Assembly: GCA_045633705.1 (NCBI GenBank)
Contig: JAZQYV010000005.1
Location: 24,561 to 88,560 of the forward strand
Reading direction: 5' to 3'
From: Candidatus Onthoplasma sp.
Lineage (GTDB): Bacteria; Bacillota; Clostridia; Christensenellales; UBA1242
Length of the DNA: 64,000 nucleotides
The notes under the pieces are model-generated. The model did no database searches. It had not been told where the DNA came from and worked only from the letters and a program-made list of their open reading frames with translations. Numbering within the stretch: position 1 is the first letter of the stretch; each line of letters begins with the position of its first letter. The translations under genes and the position numbers were made by a program. Of this stretch, positions 60,043 to 63,457 are shown in pieces.

Positions 60043-60118
60043 CGGGGTGTAGCGCAGTTGGTAGCGCACGTGGTTTGGGACCATGGGGCCGGGAGTTCGA
60101 GTCTCTTCACCCCGACCA
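60043..60118 (+). tRNA. tRNA-Pro(TGG)
   Basis: CGGGGTG acceptor, loop TTTGGGA, CCA. Confidence 0.96.
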
Positions 60119-60126
60119 TCTCATTT

Positions 60127-60203
60127 GGACCTTTAGCTCAGTTGGTTAGAGCAACCGGCTCATAACCGGTCGGTCCGCGGTTCGAGTCCGTGAAGGTCCA
60201 CCA
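60127..60203 (+). tRNA. tRNA-Ile2/Met(CAT), probably Ile2
   Basis: Anticodon loop CTCATAA; GGACCTT acceptor typical of Firmicute tRNA-Ile2. Confidence 0.9.
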
Positions 60204-60260
60204 TTTAATTTATTTAATGGTTTAAATGAGAATATAAATGCTGAAAATCAAGGCAAATAT

Positions 60261-60337
60261 GGCCCGGTAGCTCAGTTGGTTAGAGCGCCAGCCTGTCACG
60301 CTGGAGGTCGAGAGTTCGAGCCTCTTCCGGGTCGCCA
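60261..60337 (+). tRNA. tRNA-Asp(GTC)
   Basis: Loop CTGTCAC, GCCA end. Confidence 0.96.
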
Positions 60338-60339
60338 AT

Positions 60340-60415
60340 GCCTCGATAGCTCAGTCGGTAGAGCAAAGGACTGAAAATCCTTGTGTCGTTGGTTCGATTC
60401 CGACTCGAGGCACCA
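60340..60415 (+). tRNA. tRNA-Phe(GAA)
   Basis: Loop CTGAAAA, ACCA end. Confidence 0.96.
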
Positions 60416-60468
60416 ATCACAAGATTTTCAAATCGAGTGCAGGACTAATACCGAATAGTCCTAAATAT

Positions 60469-60543
60469 GCTAGTGTGGCTCAACGGTAGAGCAGCTGACT
60501 TGTAATCAGCAGGTTGGGGGTTCGATTCCCTTCACTAGCTCCA
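60469..60543 (+). tRNA. tRNA-Thr(TGT)
   Basis: Loop CTTGTAA, TCCA end. Confidence 0.96.
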
Positions 60544-60547
60544 ACAT

Positions 60548-60633
60548 GGGAAGATTGCAGAGCGGCCAAATGCTACGGACTGTAAATCCGTCGTCTTATG
60601 ACTTCGATGGTTCGAATCCATCTCTTCCCACCA
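60548..60633 (+). tRNA. tRNA-Tyr(GTA)
   Basis: Loop CTGTAAA, long variable arm, ACCA end. Confidence 0.96.
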
Positions 60634-60634
60634 A

Positions 60635-60678
60635 GTTAATAAAAATAAGAGGTTGTGATGCCTCTTATTTTTATTAAC
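60635..60678 (+). terminator. Terminator hairpin after the tRNA operon
   Basis: GTTAATAAAAATAAGAGG / CCTCTTATTTTTATTAAC perfect 18-bp IR. Confidence 0.8.
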
Positions 60679-60679
60679 A

Positions 60680-60845
60680 ATGATATGTCCGTTGGACATG
60701 ATATGGCTTAGGCAATGATATATTTGCAAGCAAATATGATATGTTGCTTGTTGCAACATGGAGGACATGTCATATCATTTTGCCTAATGGCAAAATATCA
60801 TTTGATTAAATCAAATATCATTATGAACGTAGTGAATAATATCAT
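60680..60845. repeat. Symmetric ATGATAT x4 / ATATCAT x4 ladder with interspersed mini-hairpins
   Basis: ATGATAT at 60680, 60698, 60715, 60736; ATATCAT at 60772, 60795, 60815, 60839; spacers largely self-complementary. Confidence 0.9.
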
Positions 60846-60898
60846 CAAAATTGCATTAAATTATTGTAATATGCTTAATTTTATGATATAATATGGAT

Positions 60899-61243
60899 AT
60901 GAAAGATAATATATTATTAGAAAAATCAAAAGAGTTTGCGATTGAAATTATAAATTTATGCGATAATATAAAAAATTGCTCCATTATAACTAATCAATTA
61001 TCAAGAAGTGGAACAAGTATTGGCGCAAATATTCACGAAGCACAATATGCGCATGGTAAAGCAGACTTTATTGCCAAACTTGAAATTGCATTAAAGGAAT
61101 GTAGCGAAACAGAGTACTGGTTAGAACTTTTAGTAAAAACTCAAAAAATAAATGAAAAAGTTTTTAAAGATTTAAAGAATGACGCTGGAAGCATTAGGAG
61201 AATATTAATCAAATCTTGTACAACAGCAAAAGATAATAAGTAA
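60899..61243 (+). CDS. Four-helix-bundle protein (TIGR02436 / 23S rRNA IVP / Avd-like fold)
   Basis: KS..FA..II, QLSRSGTSIGANIHEA, DFIAKLEIALKE..ETEYWLELL; TTGTAA-17-TATAAT (with TG extension) ends 6 nt before ATG 60899 (alternative start 60893). Confidence 0.9.
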   Translation: MKDNILLEKSKEFAIEIINLCDNIKNCSIITNQLSRSGTSIGANIHEAQYAHGKADFIAKLEIALKECSETEYWLELLVKTQKINEKVFKDLKNDAGSIRRILIKSCTTAKDNK

Positions 61244-61260
61244 TTTAAAGGATAAGATAA

Positions 61261-61578
61261 ATGGATAGTAAAAAACTTATAGATCTAATCAAGTTAAAAG
61301 ATAAATATGCAATTGCTTTAATGGACTATTATATCGATAAAGGTGTTAATACAAAAGATTTGCAAAGATATATTGATAGTATATGTGATGAGTGGGCTAG
61401 AACTTTTATAGCAACGTATCACAATAACCTTACAGAAAAAGAGGTTCAAATAGCTATTTTTAGGTATTTAGATGGCATTGGAGCAAAACAATCACATTCT
61501 GGCAAACGTTTTAGTGAGGCATTGTATAGACAAATGCACAATTACGTAAATAATCAAAATTCGGAATTGTCTAAATAA
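61261..61578 (+). CDS. Hypothetical protein
   Basis: AAGGA RBS, 17 bp after the four-helix-bundle gene; 105 aa. Confidence 0.65.
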   Translation: MDSKKLIDLIKLKDKYAIALMDYYIDKGVNTKDLQRYIDSICDEWARTFIATYHNNLTEKEVQIAIFRYLDGIGAKQSHSGKRFSEALYRQMHNYVNNQNSELSK

Positions 61579-61628
61579 TTTTAAAATTTTGTTGACAATA
61601 CGGTTAAAGTGGAGTATAATAAAAATAT

Positions 61629-61658
61629 ATGAAGAAATGTTGCTGTAACTTAAAATAG
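61629..61658 (+). CDS. Putative cysS leader peptide MKKCCCNLK
   Basis: ATG AAG AAA TGT TGC TGT AAC TTA AAA TAG, 8 nt after a perfect TTGACA(61592)-17-TATAAT(61615) promoter. Confidence 0.7.
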   Translation: MKKCCCNLK

Positions 61659-61714
61659 ATTAGGTACAAGTATTTGTACACATTTTTGAGTGGTGCAATC
61701 AAGATTTAAATATC

Positions 61715-61749
61715 ATAGGTCAAGAGAACACGGCTCTTGACCTATTTTT
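61715..61749 (+). terminator. Attenuator terminator in the cysS leader
   Basis: ATAGGTCAAGAG / CTCTTGACCTAT 12-bp perfect stem with T-run, between promoter and cysS. Confidence 0.8.
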
Positions 61750-61751
61750 AT

Positions 61752-61785
61752 AGTGAAAAATGAATAATTATAGATGCTTTGATTT
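61752..61785 (+). repeat. Partial heptamer-repeat element in the cysS leader
   Basis: AGTGAAA AATGAAT AATT ATA GATGCTTTG. Confidence 0.55.
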
Positions 61786-61835
61786 TTAAATTTAAACAAA
61801 AAACATTTTAAATCATATATAATAAGGAGAATAAT

Positions 61836-63275
61836 ATGAGATTTTATAATAGTTTAACTAGGCAAATTGAAGAATTTAAGCCAGTAGATGAGAAAGTTGT
61901 AAAAATGTATACTTGCGGGCCTACAGTGTATCATTTTGCACATATTGGCAATCTTCGTAGTTATATTATGGAAGATGTGCTTGAAAAAACACTACGTTTT
62001 GTAGGGTATAATGTGGTTAGATGTATGAATATTACCGATGTAGGACACTTAACTGGTGATAGCGATGATGGCGAAGACAAAATGCTACTTGGTGCTCAGC
62101 GTGAAAATAAGACCGTATTAGACATTGCGCGTTTTTACACCGAAAAATTCAAGGAAGATTGTGCTGATTTAAATATTAAATGGCCTGAAATTGTTGTACC
62201 TGCTACAAGTTGTATTGACGAGTATATTAAGATGATTGAAGTGTTACTTGAAAAGGGCTTTGCGTATCAATCAAATGGAAACGTATACTTTGATGTAAGT
62301 AAGTTGGACAATTATTATACACTAACAAATCATAAGGCTGACGATATGCTTGTAGGCGTGCGTGATGGGGTAGAGCAAGATGATGGTAAACGCAACCAAG
62401 CAGACTTTGCGCTATGGTTTACCAAATCTAAGTTTGCCGACCAAGAGCTTAAATGGGATAGCCCTTGGGGAATTGGTTACCCAGGCTGGCATATTGAATG
62501 TAGCGGTATTTCGTGCAAGCACCTTGGCGAATATCTTGATATTCATTGTGGTGGGGTTGATAATAAATTCCCACATCATACCAACGAAATTGCGCAAAGT
62601 GAGGCATATCTTGGCCATAAGTGGTGTAATTACTGGTTCCACGTTGAGCATTTAAATGGCGAAAATGGCAAGATGAGTAAAAGTGAAGGCGGTTTTGTAA
62701 CAGTCGATAGCTTAAAGGAAAAGGGATACAGCCCATTAGCATATAGATTTTTCTGCTTGATGTCACACTATGCAAAACCGTTGGTATTTAGTTTTGACCG
62801 CCTTGATGGCGCAGTTTCGGCTTATAATAAGCTAAAAGAAAAAACTTTGGCATTAAAACGTGAAGCGATAAAAACTCACAATCTTAATTCGGACAACGAA
62901 CTATTAGATATGATAAACGAAAGTGTATCGGATGAGGCAGAAGAGTTTGTTGTTAGATTTAAAGATGCTATACAAGATGATTTAAATACATCTATGGCAA
63001 TCACTGTGTTGTATGACGCGCTAAAAGCAAATATTATTGATGAAGATAAGTTATATTTAATTAATGAATTTGACAAAGTGTTAGGTCTAGATTTATTAAA
63101 AGAAGATAAAATTGCAGATGAAATTCCGCAAGAAGTGAAAGCTTTGGCTCAAATTCGCTGGCAAGCAAAACTTGACAAAAACTGGGCAGTTGCAGATGAA
63201 ATGCGTAATAAAATCACAAGCCTGGGATATCAAATATTAGATAGTAAAGAAGGTTATGAGATTAAAAAGATGTAA
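61836..63275 (+). CDS. cysS: Cysteine--tRNA ligase
   Basis: YTCGPTVY, HIGN, PGWHIECS, FPHH.NE and KMSKS. Confidence 0.98.
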   Translation: MRFYNSLTRQIEEFKPVDEKVVKMYTCGPTVYHFAHIGNLRSYIMEDVLEKTLRFVGYNVVRCMNITDVGHLTGDSDDGEDKMLLGAQRENKTVLDIARFYTEKFKEDCADLNIKWPEIVVPATSCIDEYIKMIEVLLEKGFAYQSNGNVYFDVSKLDNYYTLTNHKADDMLVGVRDGVEQDDGKRNQADFALWFTKSKFADQELKWDSPWGIGYPGWHIECSGISCKHLGEYLDIHCGGVDNKFPHHTNEIAQSEAYLGHKWCNYWFHVEHLNGENGKMSKSEGGFVTVDSLKEKGYSPLAYRFFCLMSHYAKPLVFSFDRLDGAVSAYNKLKEKTLALKREAIKTHNLNSDNELLDMINESVSDEAEEFVVRFKDAIQDDLNTSMAITVLYDALKANIIDEDKLYLINEFDKVLGLDLLKEDKIADEIPQEVKALAQIRWQAKLDKNWAVADEMRNKITSLGYQILDSKEGYEIKKM

Positions 63276-63457
63276 CAATATATATTGTATTTAAGTTTAT
63301 ATATACACAATATATTGTTTGTGCTTAATATAAAATTTAATTAACTATAAACACTTATAAAAACTACAAAACAACCTAAAAAGAGCAAGGATTAGACAAA
63401 ACCTGCTCTTTTTTTTGCGTTTTTATATGCTACAATATTTAGCAGTTGGAGGGGGAA

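What the first reader, a model, noticed from the sequence alone, without database searches (positions are those of the whole stretch)
60680..61578. Candidate new system: a stacked four-way-junction ladder element paired with an Avd-like four-helix-bundle gene
Seen: four exact ATGATAT heptamers followed by four exact reverse complements (ATATCAT). Spacers differ in sequence but are mostly hairpins: ATGTCC-GTT-GGACAT, ATATTTGC-AA-GCAAATAT, ATGTTGC-TTGTT-GCAACAT, ATTTTGCC-TAAT-GGCAAAAT, ATTTGAT-TAA-ATCAAAT, plus two imperfect ones. Nested pairing of left and right heptamers gives a rod with paired side arms, that is successive four-way junctions in ssRNA or ssDNA. Conserved structure with free sequence implies selection on the fold. 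The element lies between the tRNA terminator and the promoter of a four-helix-bundle gene, which is followed by a 105-aa orphan. Known: this fold includes the pentameric RNA-binding DGR accessory protein Avd and 23S IVS proteins, and standalone members have no established function. Inference: a protein with a repeat-structured nucleic-acid partner, acting as an RNP or as an insertion platform that carries cargo genes. The second heptamer family in this window may be related.
Basis: partly seen in the sequence, partly recalled or inferred. Interest (0 to 1): 0.85.

Follow-up and report, generated by a model that had tools for sequence, protein, structure and literature searches.

The report
Hairpin-repeat element partnered with Avd-like gene
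A 170-base block of four short repeats and their four mirror copies, separated by tiny hairpins, is a relative of an orphan "Gut-1" RNA motif and almost always sits just upstream of one clade of small four-helix-bundle genes of unknown function in gut Clostridia, which gives both orphans a testable partner.

Summary
It lies between the tRNA-Tyr terminator and the promoter of a PF05635/TIGR02436 gene.

It is not unprecedented. Each half is a sub-threshold match to Rfam Gut-1 (RF01706, function unknown), and equivalent arrays in relatives exceed Gut-1's threshold.

The pairing with the Avd-like gene holds. 67 of 73 homologous genes in Clostridia MAGs carry an inverted heptamer array upstream, against 2/69, 4/59 and 0/73 in controls. 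The heptamer changes with the protein clade, and left and right stay complementary. About half of the modules follow a tRNA or tmRNA.

Gene-less copies exist: 2 of 3 in this genome and dozens in another genome.

The association is clade-specific: 0 of 27 distant PF05635 genes show it.

The stacked four-way-junction ladder is not supported:
- position-specific heptamer variants are not mirrored;
- one-directional arrays exist;
- stable C-G-closed GNA/GNNA loops lie on opposite strands in the two halves;
- G·U pairs are not enriched.

Best reading (about 0.45): a dispersed module whose arrays display heptamers between mini-hairpins, probably as folded DNA, as the multi-site partner of the four-helix-bundle oligomer. 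Binding, strand and mobility mechanism are inferred, not shown.

The parts
60548..60633 (+). tRNA-Tyr, the last gene of a six-tRNA cluster. It is the anchor (context) after which the module starts.
   Evidence: ARAGORN; Rfam tRNA match at 55 bits.
60635..60678 (.). Long perfect hairpin (18-bp arms, 8-nt loop) flanked by an A-run and a T-run. It is a bidirectional intrinsic-terminator-type hairpin that opens the module.
   Evidence: I1. An equivalent long hairpin precedes the array in relatives, and its apex TTTGTCTACCGGACAAA is shared by loci that lie after different tRNAs (by eye).
60680..60757 (+). Left array: ATGATAT at 60680, 60698, 60715 and 60736, each followed by a short hairpin spacer (the second is imperfect).
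   Evidence: Rfam Gut-1 match at 60678-60747 (+), 25.6 bits, below the threshold of 50.
60758..60773 (.). Centre: a linker, then a copy of the 3' arm of hairpin 1 (GGAC, 60763-60766), then a degenerate reverse heptamer ATGTCAT (60767-60773) that overlaps the first ATATCAT. It is complementary to the first heptamer plus the 5' arm of hairpin 1 (60680-60690).
   Evidence: I10 (11 nt, 91%). The DNA fold of the left half closes with this helix. The same feature recurs in relatives: 26/61 against 3/113 for other arms, and 35 elements have 9-16-bp duplexes with different arm sequences.
60772..60845 (+). Right array: ATATCAT at 60772, 60795, 60815 and 60839, with hairpin spacers. The last spacer, TATGAACGTAGTGAATA, is of the conserved type with tandem G.A pairs and a C-GNA-G triloop.
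   Evidence: Rfam Gut-1 match at 60767-60847 (-), 33.9 bits. The GA-type spacer recurs in relatives.
60864..60892 (+). Sigma-70-type promoter read from the sequence: TTGTAA, 17 nt, TG-n-TATAAT. The -10 box ends 6 bases before the second ATG (60899), so the mRNA may be leaderless.
   Evidence: Read directly. A promoter-like site after the last right heptamer was found in 52 of 68 relatives by a simple score. No transcript data exist.
60893..61243 (+). Four-helix-bundle (Avd-like / 23S rRNA IVS protein family) gene of 116 aa. It carries the family motif R-x3-S-x3-N-x2-E (RSGTSIGANIHE).
   Evidence: PF05635 at 88.5 bits and TIGR02436 at 97.4 bits. PDB 2RLD at E 1.8e-30; that entry holds 5 chains of this sequence. 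The motif is as given in PMC3936711 (passage).

Best explanation
The feature is one copy of a conserved, horizontally spread module of gut Clostridia. The module has four parts in order:
1. a long terminator-type hairpin;
2. two facing arrays of 4-5 units, each unit a 7-nt repeat plus a mini-hairpin (each array is a Gut-1 / RF01706-type array);
3. a sigma-70-type promoter;
4. a PF05635 (Avd-like) four-helix-bundle gene.

The arrays are the cognate nucleic-acid partner of the protein. The spacers fold into very stable mini-hairpins with C-G-closed GNA/GNNA loops and tandem G.A pairs. The folded strand is the bottom strand in the left half and the top strand in the right half. Folding leaves the identical heptamers as short single-stranded linkers, giving 4-5 equivalent sites per half for an oligomer of the protein. 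The folded form is more likely DNA (unwound or supercoiled) than one RNA.

Gene-less copies elsewhere in the genome would use the protein in trans. The module and its gene-less derivatives settle at the 3' ends of stable-RNA genes and in or next to intrinsic terminators.

Shown: anatomy, linkage to the gene clade, dispersal, co-occurrence, selection on hairpins, strand asymmetry of loops.
Inferred: that the protein binds the array, the stoichiometry, DNA rather than RNA, and how copies spread.
For: Linkage to the gene:
- 67 of 73 homologs (57-76% identical; best 80 of 558 confirmed loci) have an inverted heptamer array within 450 nt upstream. Controls give 2/69 (far upstream), 4/59 (downstream) and 0/73 (shuffled).
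- The arrays upstream of the homologs L079, L067, L047, L045, L197 and L198, and one array after a 5S rRNA gene in G054 (L006), reach Gut-1's gathering score.

Heptamer class:
- It differs between elements (ATGATAT, GTGATAT, TCGATAT, ATGATG, GTGATG, AGTTAT, TGAAAT), while left and right stay complementary.
- It tracks the protein tree: 20 changes against 54 in shuffles, 0 of 200 shuffles as low (quick tree).
- In G054, by eye, the five complete PF05635 paralogs carry four different repeat classes.

Hairpins and loops:
- Terminal stems of at least 3 bp occur in 64/137 left and 79/156 right spacers, against about 10 and 7 in shuffles.
- Own copies C5 and C8 differ by compensatory double changes.
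- On the left (+ strand), 45/58 triloops are TNC and 19/27 tetraloops are TNNC, with 88/96 closed by C-G. On the right, 25/56 triloops are GNA, and 29 spacers have long (11-13 nt) loops, most of them of the GAGCGAAGCGA type. The stable strand therefore flips at the centre.
- Among non-Watson-Crick pairs, G.T (3) is no commoner than A.C (3) or C.T (5).

Dispersal and co-occurrence:
- There are 3 copies in this genome, all directly after a tRNA terminator in the same orientation, and 2 of them lack the gene.
- G054 has 120 triple-heptamer matches against 0 in the control.
- In the genus, hairpin-type RTGATAT arrays occur only in G000, G003 and G019. All three carry PF05635, against 3-4 of the other 58 genomes.

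Location:
- 36 of 73 modules follow a same-strand tRNA or tmRNA of 12 identities.
- G022 has the empty site.

Precedent:
- DGR targets need a DNA hairpin with a sequence-free stem and a 5'-GRNA loop. The authors suggest Avd might touch it (PMC3240598, passages).
- The homolog 2RLD has 5 chains in its entry.
Against: - No binding, expression or structure-probing data exist. The RNA contigs laid on the locus covered only the tRNAs and a conserved stretch of the gene.
- The protein is only mildly basic: pI 7.6 here, median 8.4 over 81 homologs.
- The association is absent from distant PF05635 genes: 0 of 27 in a phylum-wide sample.
- G019 has two ATGATAT arrays, but its only PF05635 gene carries an in-frame TAA and an ATGAAGG/CTTCAT array. 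This argues against strict one-protein-one-heptamer matching.
- In the TCGATAT clade I saw no clear terminator before the array, and a Shine-Dalgarno sequence follows it. There the array may be transcribed within an mRNA.
- One genus-mate (L201) has GNNA loops on the + strand of its left half, an exception to the loop asymmetry.
- My hairpin scoring penalises all mismatches, so the low G.T count is partly built in.
- Co-variation of heptamer class with protein clade is what co-inheritance alone would give.
Confidence: 0.45

Rival explanations
1. One RNA (or ssDNA) strand folds by nested pairing of left and right heptamers into a rod of stacked four-way junctions. This rod is the RNA partner of the protein (an RNP).
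For: - Left and right heptamers are complementary in every class.
- The commonest counts are 4 left with 4 or 5 right (32 of 68).
- The RNA minimum-energy fold pairs the first left with the last right heptamer, at z -4.05.
- RNAalifold on 6 ATGATG elements draws a ladder-like nesting.
- In G054:C3 the gene lies between the two arrays, like an ORF in the loop of an rRNA intervening sequence.
- In the TCGATAT clade the array may lie inside a transcript.
Against: - All heptamers within an element are the same, which a ladder does not require.
- Conserved variants are not mirrored. The first left heptamer is GTTATAT in 11 or more GTGATAT-class elements whose right heptamers are all GTGATAT-type. 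The fourth right heptamer is the G variant in AGTTAT-class elements.
- One-directional arrays of up to about 17 units exist.
- In most loci a terminator precedes the array and the promoter follows it.
- G.U pairs are not enriched, and loop types flip strand at the centre.
- The covariation term is +0.95 and only 4 of 52 pairs are compensatory, mostly in local hairpins.
Confidence: 0.15
2. The arrays are a selfish MITE/REPIN-like repeat copied by a host or unlinked enzyme. The four-helix-bundle gene is only a passenger, or a frequent neighbour that uses the same safe havens (terminators and the ends of stable-RNA genes).
For: - Dozens of copies in G054 have conserved ends.
- 4 of 9 scored copies (a fifth by eye) lie between copy-specific A-tract/arm and arm/T-tract halves of a split terminator.
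- The orthologous gene in G287 has an intact terminator at that place.
- Gene-less copies are in the majority.
- PF05635 genes elsewhere lack arrays.
Against: - The gene-array adjacency is too regular for chance: 67/73, at a fixed position and orientation.
- Each protein clade keeps its own heptamer class.
- Rare classes such as GCGATAT exist only beside their gene.
- No Y1/RAYT transposase or reverse transcriptase was found in G000 or G054.
- In the genus the arrays occur only in genomes that carry the gene.
Confidence: 0.15
3. The array is a double-stranded operator. The heptamers are binding sites through which the protein (or another regulator) controls the promoter that abuts the last right heptamer (autoregulation). 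Solo copies are decayed remnants.
For: - A consensus-like promoter starts 0-20 nt after the last right heptamer in most loci: 52 of 68 score at least 9/13.
- A ninth ATGATAT overlaps the -10 box here.
- Sites occur in both orientations, as expected for duplex recognition.
Against: - Duplex binding does not explain why the spacers are kept as hairpins with strand-specific stable loops.
- Site spacing is variable (16-26 bp start to start).
- Solo copies are conserved between species (own C4 and G019) and proliferate in G054.
Confidence: 0.1
4. Each half is a small RNA gene in the Rfam Gut-1 orientation. This gives two convergent sRNAs whose function is unrelated to binding the neighbouring protein.
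For: - Both halves match the Gut-1 model in convergent orientation.
- Weinberg et al. rated Gut-1 a likely noncoding RNA (PMC2864571, table and passage).
Against: - In that orientation the loops are C-G-closed UNC triloops and the tandem mismatches would be U.C/C.U. The stable GNA and G.A features lie on the opposite strand.
- By eye there is no room for a promoter before the left half, because the terminator abuts it.
- No RNA contig covered the array (uninformative).
Confidence: 0.1

Closest known systems
Gut-1 RNA motif (Rfam RF01706; Weinberg et al. 2010, PMC2864571)
   Same: The architecture matches: four conserved 7-nt linkers (consensus GUGAAAU-like) separated by three sequence-free hairpins. 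Both halves of the window element align end to end with the model. Equivalent arrays in relatives score 50.9-65.2 bits, above the threshold of 50.
   Different: - The window halves score only 33.9 and 25.6 bits.
- The unit here is ATGATAT.
- The element is an inverted pair or a longer array, not a single 77-nt RNA.
- The stable loop features lie on the strand opposite to the Rfam orientation.
- The main text I could read reports no function and names no linked gene. Its Additional files could not be opened.
Avd of diversity-generating retroelements, and the DNA hairpin of DGR targets
   Same: The protein belongs to the same fold family (PF05635; PMC10053308 passage). DGR targets need a DNA hairpin/cruciform with a sequence-free GC stem and a conserved 5'-GRNA loop on one strand (PMC3240598). 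This resembles the C-G-closed GNA/GNNA mini-hairpins here.
   Different: No reverse transcriptase was found in this genome or in G054, and I saw no template/variable repeat pair. The element has many hairpins plus a repeated heptamer instead of one hairpin. Whether Avd touches the DGR hairpin is itself only a suggestion.
ORF-bearing intervening sequences of rRNA genes (23S rRNA IVS protein)
   Same: The protein family is the same, and so is the habit of living with stable-RNA genes. In G054:C3 the gene sits between the two arrays, like an ORF inside an IVS stem-loop. PF05635 ORFs occur in 16S and 23S insertions of CPR bacteria (bioRxiv 2024.02.27.582315, passage).
   Different: The module lies after tRNA, tmRNA or 5S genes or terminators, not inside an rRNA helix. 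Heptamer-hairpin arrays were not mentioned in the passages I read about IVSs.
REP/REPIN elements with their RAYT transposase
   Same: Both are short structured extragenic repeats, often as inverted doublets, dispersed in tens of copies. Both have a single-copy protein gene flanked by its own repeat class. (This is recalled knowledge of REPIN-RAYT; the pattern seen here is.)
   Different: No Y1/RAYT gene was found (PF01797: 0 of 4 genomes). The linked protein is a 116-aa helical bundle with no known catalytic site. The unit is a heptamer plus a variable hairpin rather than one conserved palindrome.
Type III toxin-antitoxin loci (ToxIN-like)
   Same: A tandem repeat array lies directly upstream of a small protein gene (recalled architecture).
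   Different: The units are not identical repeats. The array is inverted. A promoter, not a terminator, separates the array from the gene. The protein has no PADLOC or PHROGs match.
Integron attC sites
   Same: Both conserve structure while leaving sequence free, both have 7-nt core sites in inverted orientation, and both function as a folded single DNA strand (recalled).
   Different: There are no cassettes between sites. The units are about 20 nt long. The heptamers do not fit the attC core consensus as I recall it. The presence of an integron integrase was not tested.

Membership tests
Rfam Gut-1 (RF01706) | Covariance-model score at or above the gathering score of 50 bits | tested here: not met
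   The window halves score 33.9 bits (60767-60847, -) and 25.6 bits (60678-60747, +). The best own-genome copy scores 49.7. Homologous arrays in relatives do meet it: L079 63.7 and 54.2, L067 58.4, L047 56.1, L045 50.9; L006 65.2, L198 65.0, L197 59.1; and 16 matches in G054. At E <= 10 the control genomes also give weak hits (9 of 14).
Rfam Gut-1 (RF01706) | Four conserved single-stranded linkers separated by three hairpins of free sequence | tested here: met
   Both halves align to the model from position 1 to 77.
PF05635 / TIGR02436 four-helix-bundle (23S rRNA IVS protein, Avd-like) | Profile score above the curated cut-off over the full length | tested here: met
   PF05635 at 88.5 bits against 33.8, residues 4-106. 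TIGR02436 at 97.4 bits against 24. PDB 2RLD at E 1.8e-30.
PF05635 / TIGR02436 four-helix-bundle | Conserved motif G-x2-R-x3-S-x3-N-x2-E (PMC3936711) | tested here: met
   RSGTSIGANIHE is read in the translation. The motif is taken from the passage. The leading G was not checked.
Diversity-generating retroelement (Avd as accessory) | A reverse transcriptase with a template/variable repeat pair nearby | tested here: not met
   PF00078 was not found in G000 (93% complete) or G054. No TR/VR pair was searched for.
rRNA intervening sequence ORF | The gene lies inside a 23S or 16S rRNA gene | tested here: not met
   The gene lies after a tRNA cluster and before cysS.
REP/REPIN-RAYT | A Y1 (RAYT / IS200-like) transposase gene flanked by the repeats | tested here: not met
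   PF01797: 0 of 4 genomes (G000, G019, G003, G054), while 6 of 14 control genomes give a hit.
Type III toxin-antitoxin | A ToxN-type endoribonuclease downstream of identical tandem repeats and a terminator | tested here: not met
   No PADLOC match. The units differ in sequence, and a promoter lies between the array and the gene.
CRISPR array | Direct repeats of about 23-50 nt with unique spacers of similar length | tested here: not met
   The repeats are 7 nt, the spacers are 9-19-nt palindromes, and the array is inverted.
Integron attC | An integron integrase and gene cassettes between the sites | not tested
   No cassettes are visible between the units. No integrase search was run.

The most novel reading that the evidence does not exclude
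Standalone Avd-like four-helix-bundle proteins are the dedicated partner, and the only encoded protein, of a previously unrecognised class of mobile hairpin-array elements. The protein oligomer would bind heptamers displayed between DNA mini-hairpins at both ends of the element. The element would settle at hairpin apexes: intrinsic terminators, the 3' ends of stable-RNA genes and, in other lineages, rRNA helices. This would also explain ORF-bearing rRNA intervening sequences and give the orphan Gut-1 motif a function as DNA rather than as an sRNA.
Probability: 0.25. Interest if true: 0.9.

Novelty: new variant of a known kind. Interest (0 to 1): 0.78.

Why it matters
Two long-standing orphans meet here.

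The Gut-1 motif has been in Rfam since 2010 with no function and, in the main text I could read, no linked gene. Standalone PF05635 proteins (Avd-like, '23S rRNA IVS protein') are still called functionally uncharacterised in a 2024 preprint I read.

A near-obligate adjacency in one clade, clade-specific repeat sequences, and gene-less copies in the same genomes turn 'function unknown' into a direct experiment: does this protein bind this array, in which strand and form, and with what specificity?

Genomes such as G054 carry several paralog/repeat pairs, which offer natural specificity swaps.

If the DNA reading holds, it would add a new kind of structured DNA element and a role for the Avd fold outside retroelements. 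If the RNA reading holds, it would define a new RNP.

Tried and rejected
- Expression. The run search gave only 0.05 shares. Laying four gut metatranscriptome contig sets covered the tRNAs and a conserved stretch of the gene from other organisms, and nothing on the array. This says nothing either way.
- Ladder covariation. RNAalifold on 6 of the 12 ATGATG/GTGATG elements I had listed gave no covariation support. I did not run the other 6 or the 17 TCGATAT elements.
- G.U test on the long-range helix (first heptamer plus arm against the centre): G.T 5 against C.A 3, so no strand call.
- A terminal inverted motif (TAGGGATTT / AAATCCCTA) is visible in G054 copies. It does not generalise: one chance-level hit near own C8 and no consistent position in the 80 loci.
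- The split-terminator flank test failed for L125, L135, L140 and L038. The script mis-set the end of L128. 4 of the 13 sequences lacked the right-end motif.
- Family-wide association is rejected: 0 of 27 distant PF05635 loci pass upstream, and 1 of 27 passes downstream.
- Phage or plasmid carriage. Only two UNVERIFIED fecal 'phage' contigs carry the same chromosomal-looking context. Plasmid hits are at most 47% identical, mostly cyanobacterial, and were not examined.
- The 105-aa ORF as a partner is rejected.
- The careful tree did not finish, so the quick tree was used.
- Literature. Searches for 'Gut-1 RNA', PF05635/Avd terms, 'rRNA-intervening sequence protein' and TIGR02436/23S_rRNA_IVP terms found no paper linking the motif to the protein. 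Weinberg's Additional files, which discuss Gut-1, are supplements and could not be read; they may already name neighbouring genes.
- Not done: predicted structure or complex jobs, the large protein searches, an integrase search.
Full report
THE OBSERVATION

The sequence holds ATGATAT at 60680, 60698, 60715 and 60736, and ATATCAT at 60772, 60795, 60815 and 60839. The window has 34 copies of the heptamer on both strands against 19.6 +/- 4.9 in shuffles (0 of 100 reach 34). Eight of them stand in strict 4+4 order within 166 bases.

The + strand folds at z -4.05 as RNA and the - strand at z -3.11.

- To the left lie tRNA-Tyr (60548-60633) and a perfect 18-bp A-run/T-run hairpin (60635-60678).
- To the right I read a promoter, TTGTAA-17-TGaTATAAT (60864-60892).
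- Then comes a 116-aa gene (60893-61243) that matches PF05635 at 88.5 bits and TIGR02436 at 97.4 bits, and PDB 2RLD at E 1.8e-30.
- The following 105-aa ORF has no family.

A DESCRIBED RELATIVE EXISTS

An E-value scan of Rfam matches each half to Gut-1 (RF01706): 60767-60847 on the - strand at 33.9 bits, and 60678-60747 on the + strand at 25.6 bits. The gathering score is 50. The alignments run over the whole model, which is four GUGAAAU-like linkers and three hairpins.

Weak Gut-1 hits alone mean little: at E <= 10 the same search gives hits in 9 of 14 control genomes. But the genome has three such loci, each an inverted pair:
- C4, 36.4 and 49.7 bits;
- C8, 27.2 and 34.2 bits;
- this one.

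G054, a genome of the same order, has 53 matches, 16 of them above threshold.

Gut-1 is listed by Weinberg et al. (2010) as a likely noncoding RNA found only in human-gut sequence, with no function (PMC2864571, table and passage). Their supplementary discussion could not be opened.

THE THREE COPIES IN THIS GENOME

All three lie directly after the terminator hairpin of a tRNA gene, in the same orientation relative to the tRNA. Only the window copy is followed by the four-helix-bundle gene. C5 and C8 are clear paralogs and differ by compensatory double changes in hairpin stems. G019 has the ortholog of C4.

LINKAGE TO THE GENE

Of 600 candidate stretches in the species-representative genomes, 558 encode a relative of the protein, and the best 80 (57-76% identity, Clostridia MAGs) were kept.

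A mechanical detector looked for one hexamer in at least 2 or 3 copies, followed by at least 3 or 2 copies of its reverse complement. Results:
- 67 of the 73 loci with 450 nt of upstream sequence pass (43 at the stricter 3-and-3 level);
- 2 of 69 pass in regions 950-1400 nt upstream;
- 4 of 59 pass in regions downstream;
- 0 of 73 shuffled sequences pass.

The arrays sit at about -250 to -50. The commonest counts are 4 left with 4 or 5 right heptamers (32 of 68).

Several of these arrays exceed the Gut-1 threshold: L079 on both halves, L067, L047 and L045 among 20 loci scanned; L197 and L198, and the L006 array after a 5S rRNA gene in G054, among 20 more.

Within the genus and in G054, the PF05635 genes also have upstream inverted repeat arrays. 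I judged this by eye, and some arrays are short or lack hairpins.

The association is not family-wide. In a phylum sample, 38 of 201 genomes have PF05635, and 0 of the 27 testable loci pass the detector upstream.

THE HEPTAMER VARIES, THE SYMMETRY DOES NOT

The classes seen are ATGATAT, GTGATAT, TCGATAT, ATGATG, GTGATG, AGTTAT and TGAAAT. In G054 and the genus I also saw GCGATAT, CATAAT, ACACAGT, ATGAAGG and ATATGTAATT. Left and right are always complementary.

The class follows the protein tree: 20 changes against 54 for shuffled labels, 0 of 200 shuffles as low. This is the quick tree; the careful one did not finish. Co-inheritance alone would give this, so it is compatible with co-evolved recognition but does not prove it.

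ANATOMY SHARED BY THE MODULES

In order:
1. A long hairpin, often a bidirectional terminator, whose apex is shared by loci that lie after different tRNAs.
2. The left array.
3. A centre that repeats the 3' arm of hairpin 1 followed by a degenerate reverse heptamer.
4. The right array, which includes a conserved spacer type with tandem G.A pairs and a C-GNA-G loop.
5. A promoter starting 0-20 nt after the last heptamer. 52 of 68 score at least 9 of 13, and the -10 box is often 6-13 nt from the ATG.

Because of the centre, the first heptamer plus the arm of hairpin 1 can pair with the centre over 9-16 bp. This is found in 35 elements with at least six different arm sequences. Arm-only scores of at least 6 occur in 26/61, against 3/113 for the other arms.

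In the window this helix is 60680-60690 with 60763-73, and it closes the DNA fold of the left half.

IS IT A LADDER?

The evidence is mostly against nested left-right pairing as the selected structure.
- A ladder does not need all rungs to be identical.
- Conserved position-specific variants are not mirrored. The first left heptamer is GTTATAT in at least 11 GTGATAT-class elements whose right heptamers are all of the G type. A G variant holds the fourth right position in AGTTAT-class elements.
- G054 has one-directional arrays of up to about 17 units.
- RNAalifold gives a positive (unfavourable) covariation term.

The GTTATAT variant does pair perfectly with the centre, so the long-range helix that is supported is first-heptamer-to-centre, not first-to-last.

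WHICH STRAND, AND RNA OR DNA?

Spacers are hairpins far above chance: terminal stems of at least 3 bp in 64/137 and 79/156, against about 10 and 7 in shuffles. The loops are strongly patterned.

Read on the + strand, the left half has:
- 45 of 58 triloops of type TNC;
- 19 of 27 tetraloops of type TNNC;
- 88 of 96 hairpins closed by C-G.

On the bottom strand these are C-GNA-G and C-GNNA-G.

The right half has, on the + strand:
- 25 of 56 triloops of type GNA;
- 8 of 13 tetraloops of type GNNA;
- 29 long (11-13 nt) 'loops', most of the GAGCGAAGCGA type, that is tandem G.A pairs around a C-GNA-G loop.

So the strand with the stable features runs 5'-to-3' from the centre outwards in both halves. 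This is opposite to the Rfam orientation.

Non-Watson-Crick pairs are rare, and G.T (3) is no commoner than A.C (3) or C.T (5) among about 966 pairs. My scoring penalises all mismatches, so the rarity is partly built in, but the lack of a G.T excess is not.

C-GNA-G triloops, including GCGAAGC, are known from memory as exceptionally stable DNA mini-hairpins. Triloops outnumber tetraloops here, and most arrays sit between a terminator and an outward-firing promoter. Together these lean towards folded DNA, but they do not prove it.

Exceptions:
- L201 has GNNA loops on the + strand of its left half.
- The TCGATAT clade seems to lack a terminator before the array and has a Shine-Dalgarno sequence after it.

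DISPERSAL

G054 has 120 triple-heptamer matches for GTKATAT against 0 in the control. Most are in (+ then -) pairs, and the copies are alignable over about 330-400 bp with conserved ends. The GCGATAT class exists only beside its own gene.

In one G054 locus the gene lies between the two arrays.

Gene-less copies look like ORF-deleted versions of the gene-bearing one. They keep a region alignable with the promoter, a terminator hairpin and an end motif.

Four of nine scored copies, and a fifth by eye, are bracketed by copy-specific A-tract/arm ... arm/T-tract sequences, that is a split bidirectional terminator. The orthologous gene in another genus ends with an intact terminator at that place.

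In this genus, hairpin-type RTGATAT arrays occur in G000, G003 and G019 only, and all three carry PF05635, against 3-4 of the other 58 genomes. Kin are not independent.

G019 is awkward for strict cognate matching. Its arrays are ATGATAT, but its only PF05635 gene has an in-frame TAA and an ATGAAGG array.

WHERE THE MODULES SIT

36 of 73 follow a same-strand tRNA or tmRNA of 12 identities. Others follow 5S rRNA plus tRNA. The TCGATAT clade follows a protein gene.

The closest relatives differ at this very locus:
- G022 has the tRNA cluster, a terminator, about 70 nt and the cysS leader, with no array and no genes.
- G032 and G003 have homologs of the 105-aa ORF (67% and 41% identity) but no four-helix-bundle gene.

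So the module is an insertion into a variable spot, and the 105-aa ORF is not its partner.

WHAT IT IS NOT

- Not a DGR: no reverse transcriptase in G000 or G054.
- Not REP-RAYT: no Y1 transposase in 4 genomes.
- Not a known defence or phage family.
- Not an rRNA intervening sequence.
- Not a CRISPR array.

The two 'phage' records with the module are unverified fecal contigs with the same tRNA or terminator context.

HOW IT MOST LIKELY WORKS (about 0.45)

The arrays are the multi-site partner of the four-helix-bundle protein. The mini-hairpins act as compact, sequence-free spacers that hold the identical heptamers single-stranded and close together. This gives 4-5 sites per half, possibly one oligomer per half. 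The homolog 2RLD has five chains in its entry; that Avd is a pentamer is recalled, not tested.

The two halves work on opposite strands, like the two ends of a mobile element or a symmetric origin-like site. Gene-less copies depend on the protein in trans.

The DGR precedent gives the idea some footing. DGR targets use a DNA hairpin with a free stem and a GRNA loop near an Avd-containing machine (PMC3240598).

What the complex then does is open. It could copy or maintain the element, control the promoter beside it, or something else.

Rivals, with my odds:
- a selfish repeat with a passenger gene, 0.15;
- a duplex operator, 0.10;
- convergent Gut-1 sRNAs, 0.10.

VERDICT

The element is a new variant of the Gut-1 kind.

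Its regular partnership with one PF05635 clade, its inverted-pair form, its strand asymmetry and its dispersal were not found in the papers I could search. The supplements of the 2010 paper were not seen.

Noticed in passing
window 61579-61835: The cysS leader has a consensus-like promoter (TTGACA...TATAAT), about 130 nt of conserved sequence and a strong terminator (GGTCAAGAGAACACGGCTCTTGACC plus a T-run). It is conserved in G022 and G028, yet no Rfam family (no T-box) matched at E <= 1. It may be an undescribed attenuator or leader.
   Followed up: partly
window 63274-63320: Two near-identical 14-nt palindromes (ACAATATATATTGT type) lie 33 nt apart between the cysS stop and the spoIIAA-like gene. 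They look like operators.
   Followed up: partly
L143 (G003:C8), about 80-330 nt upstream of the orf105 homolog: In G003 the homolog of the 105-aa ORF is preceded, after the tRNA terminator, by TTTTTCA x3 and then TGAAAAA-like x3, without hairpin spacers, followed by a promoter. This could be a hairpin-less or decayed inverted array beside a different small gene.
   Followed up: no
G054 copies (L123-L135; L038): The dispersed copies share a left hairpin whose loop reads TAGGGATTT and a right end that reads AAATCCCTA, which looks like a terminal inverted repeat. Several copies sit inside split intrinsic terminators. The motif did not generalise to the other loci.
   Followed up: partly
G225:C1, four places: Four PF05635 matches in one genome have identical scores. 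They may be copies inside repeated rRNA operons (intervening sequences). I did not look.
   Followed up: no
window 60043-60633 compared with L144 and L145: The order of the last two tRNAs differs from the closest relatives: Thr-Tyr here, Tyr-Thr in G022, G032 and G003. The end of the tRNA cluster has therefore been rearranged where the module sits.
   Followed up: no
G007:C1:159001-159103: A 16-nt tandem repeat contains ATGATAT (ATGATATAATAACATA type), in at least 7 units and without hairpins. It is a different kind of repeat that shares the heptamer.
   Followed up: no
L011 (G054:C33:570-900 and 1610-1780): One-directional arrays of up to about 17 units are built from a higher-order repeat of three units (about 57 nt). 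This suggests array growth by tandem duplication.
   Followed up: partly
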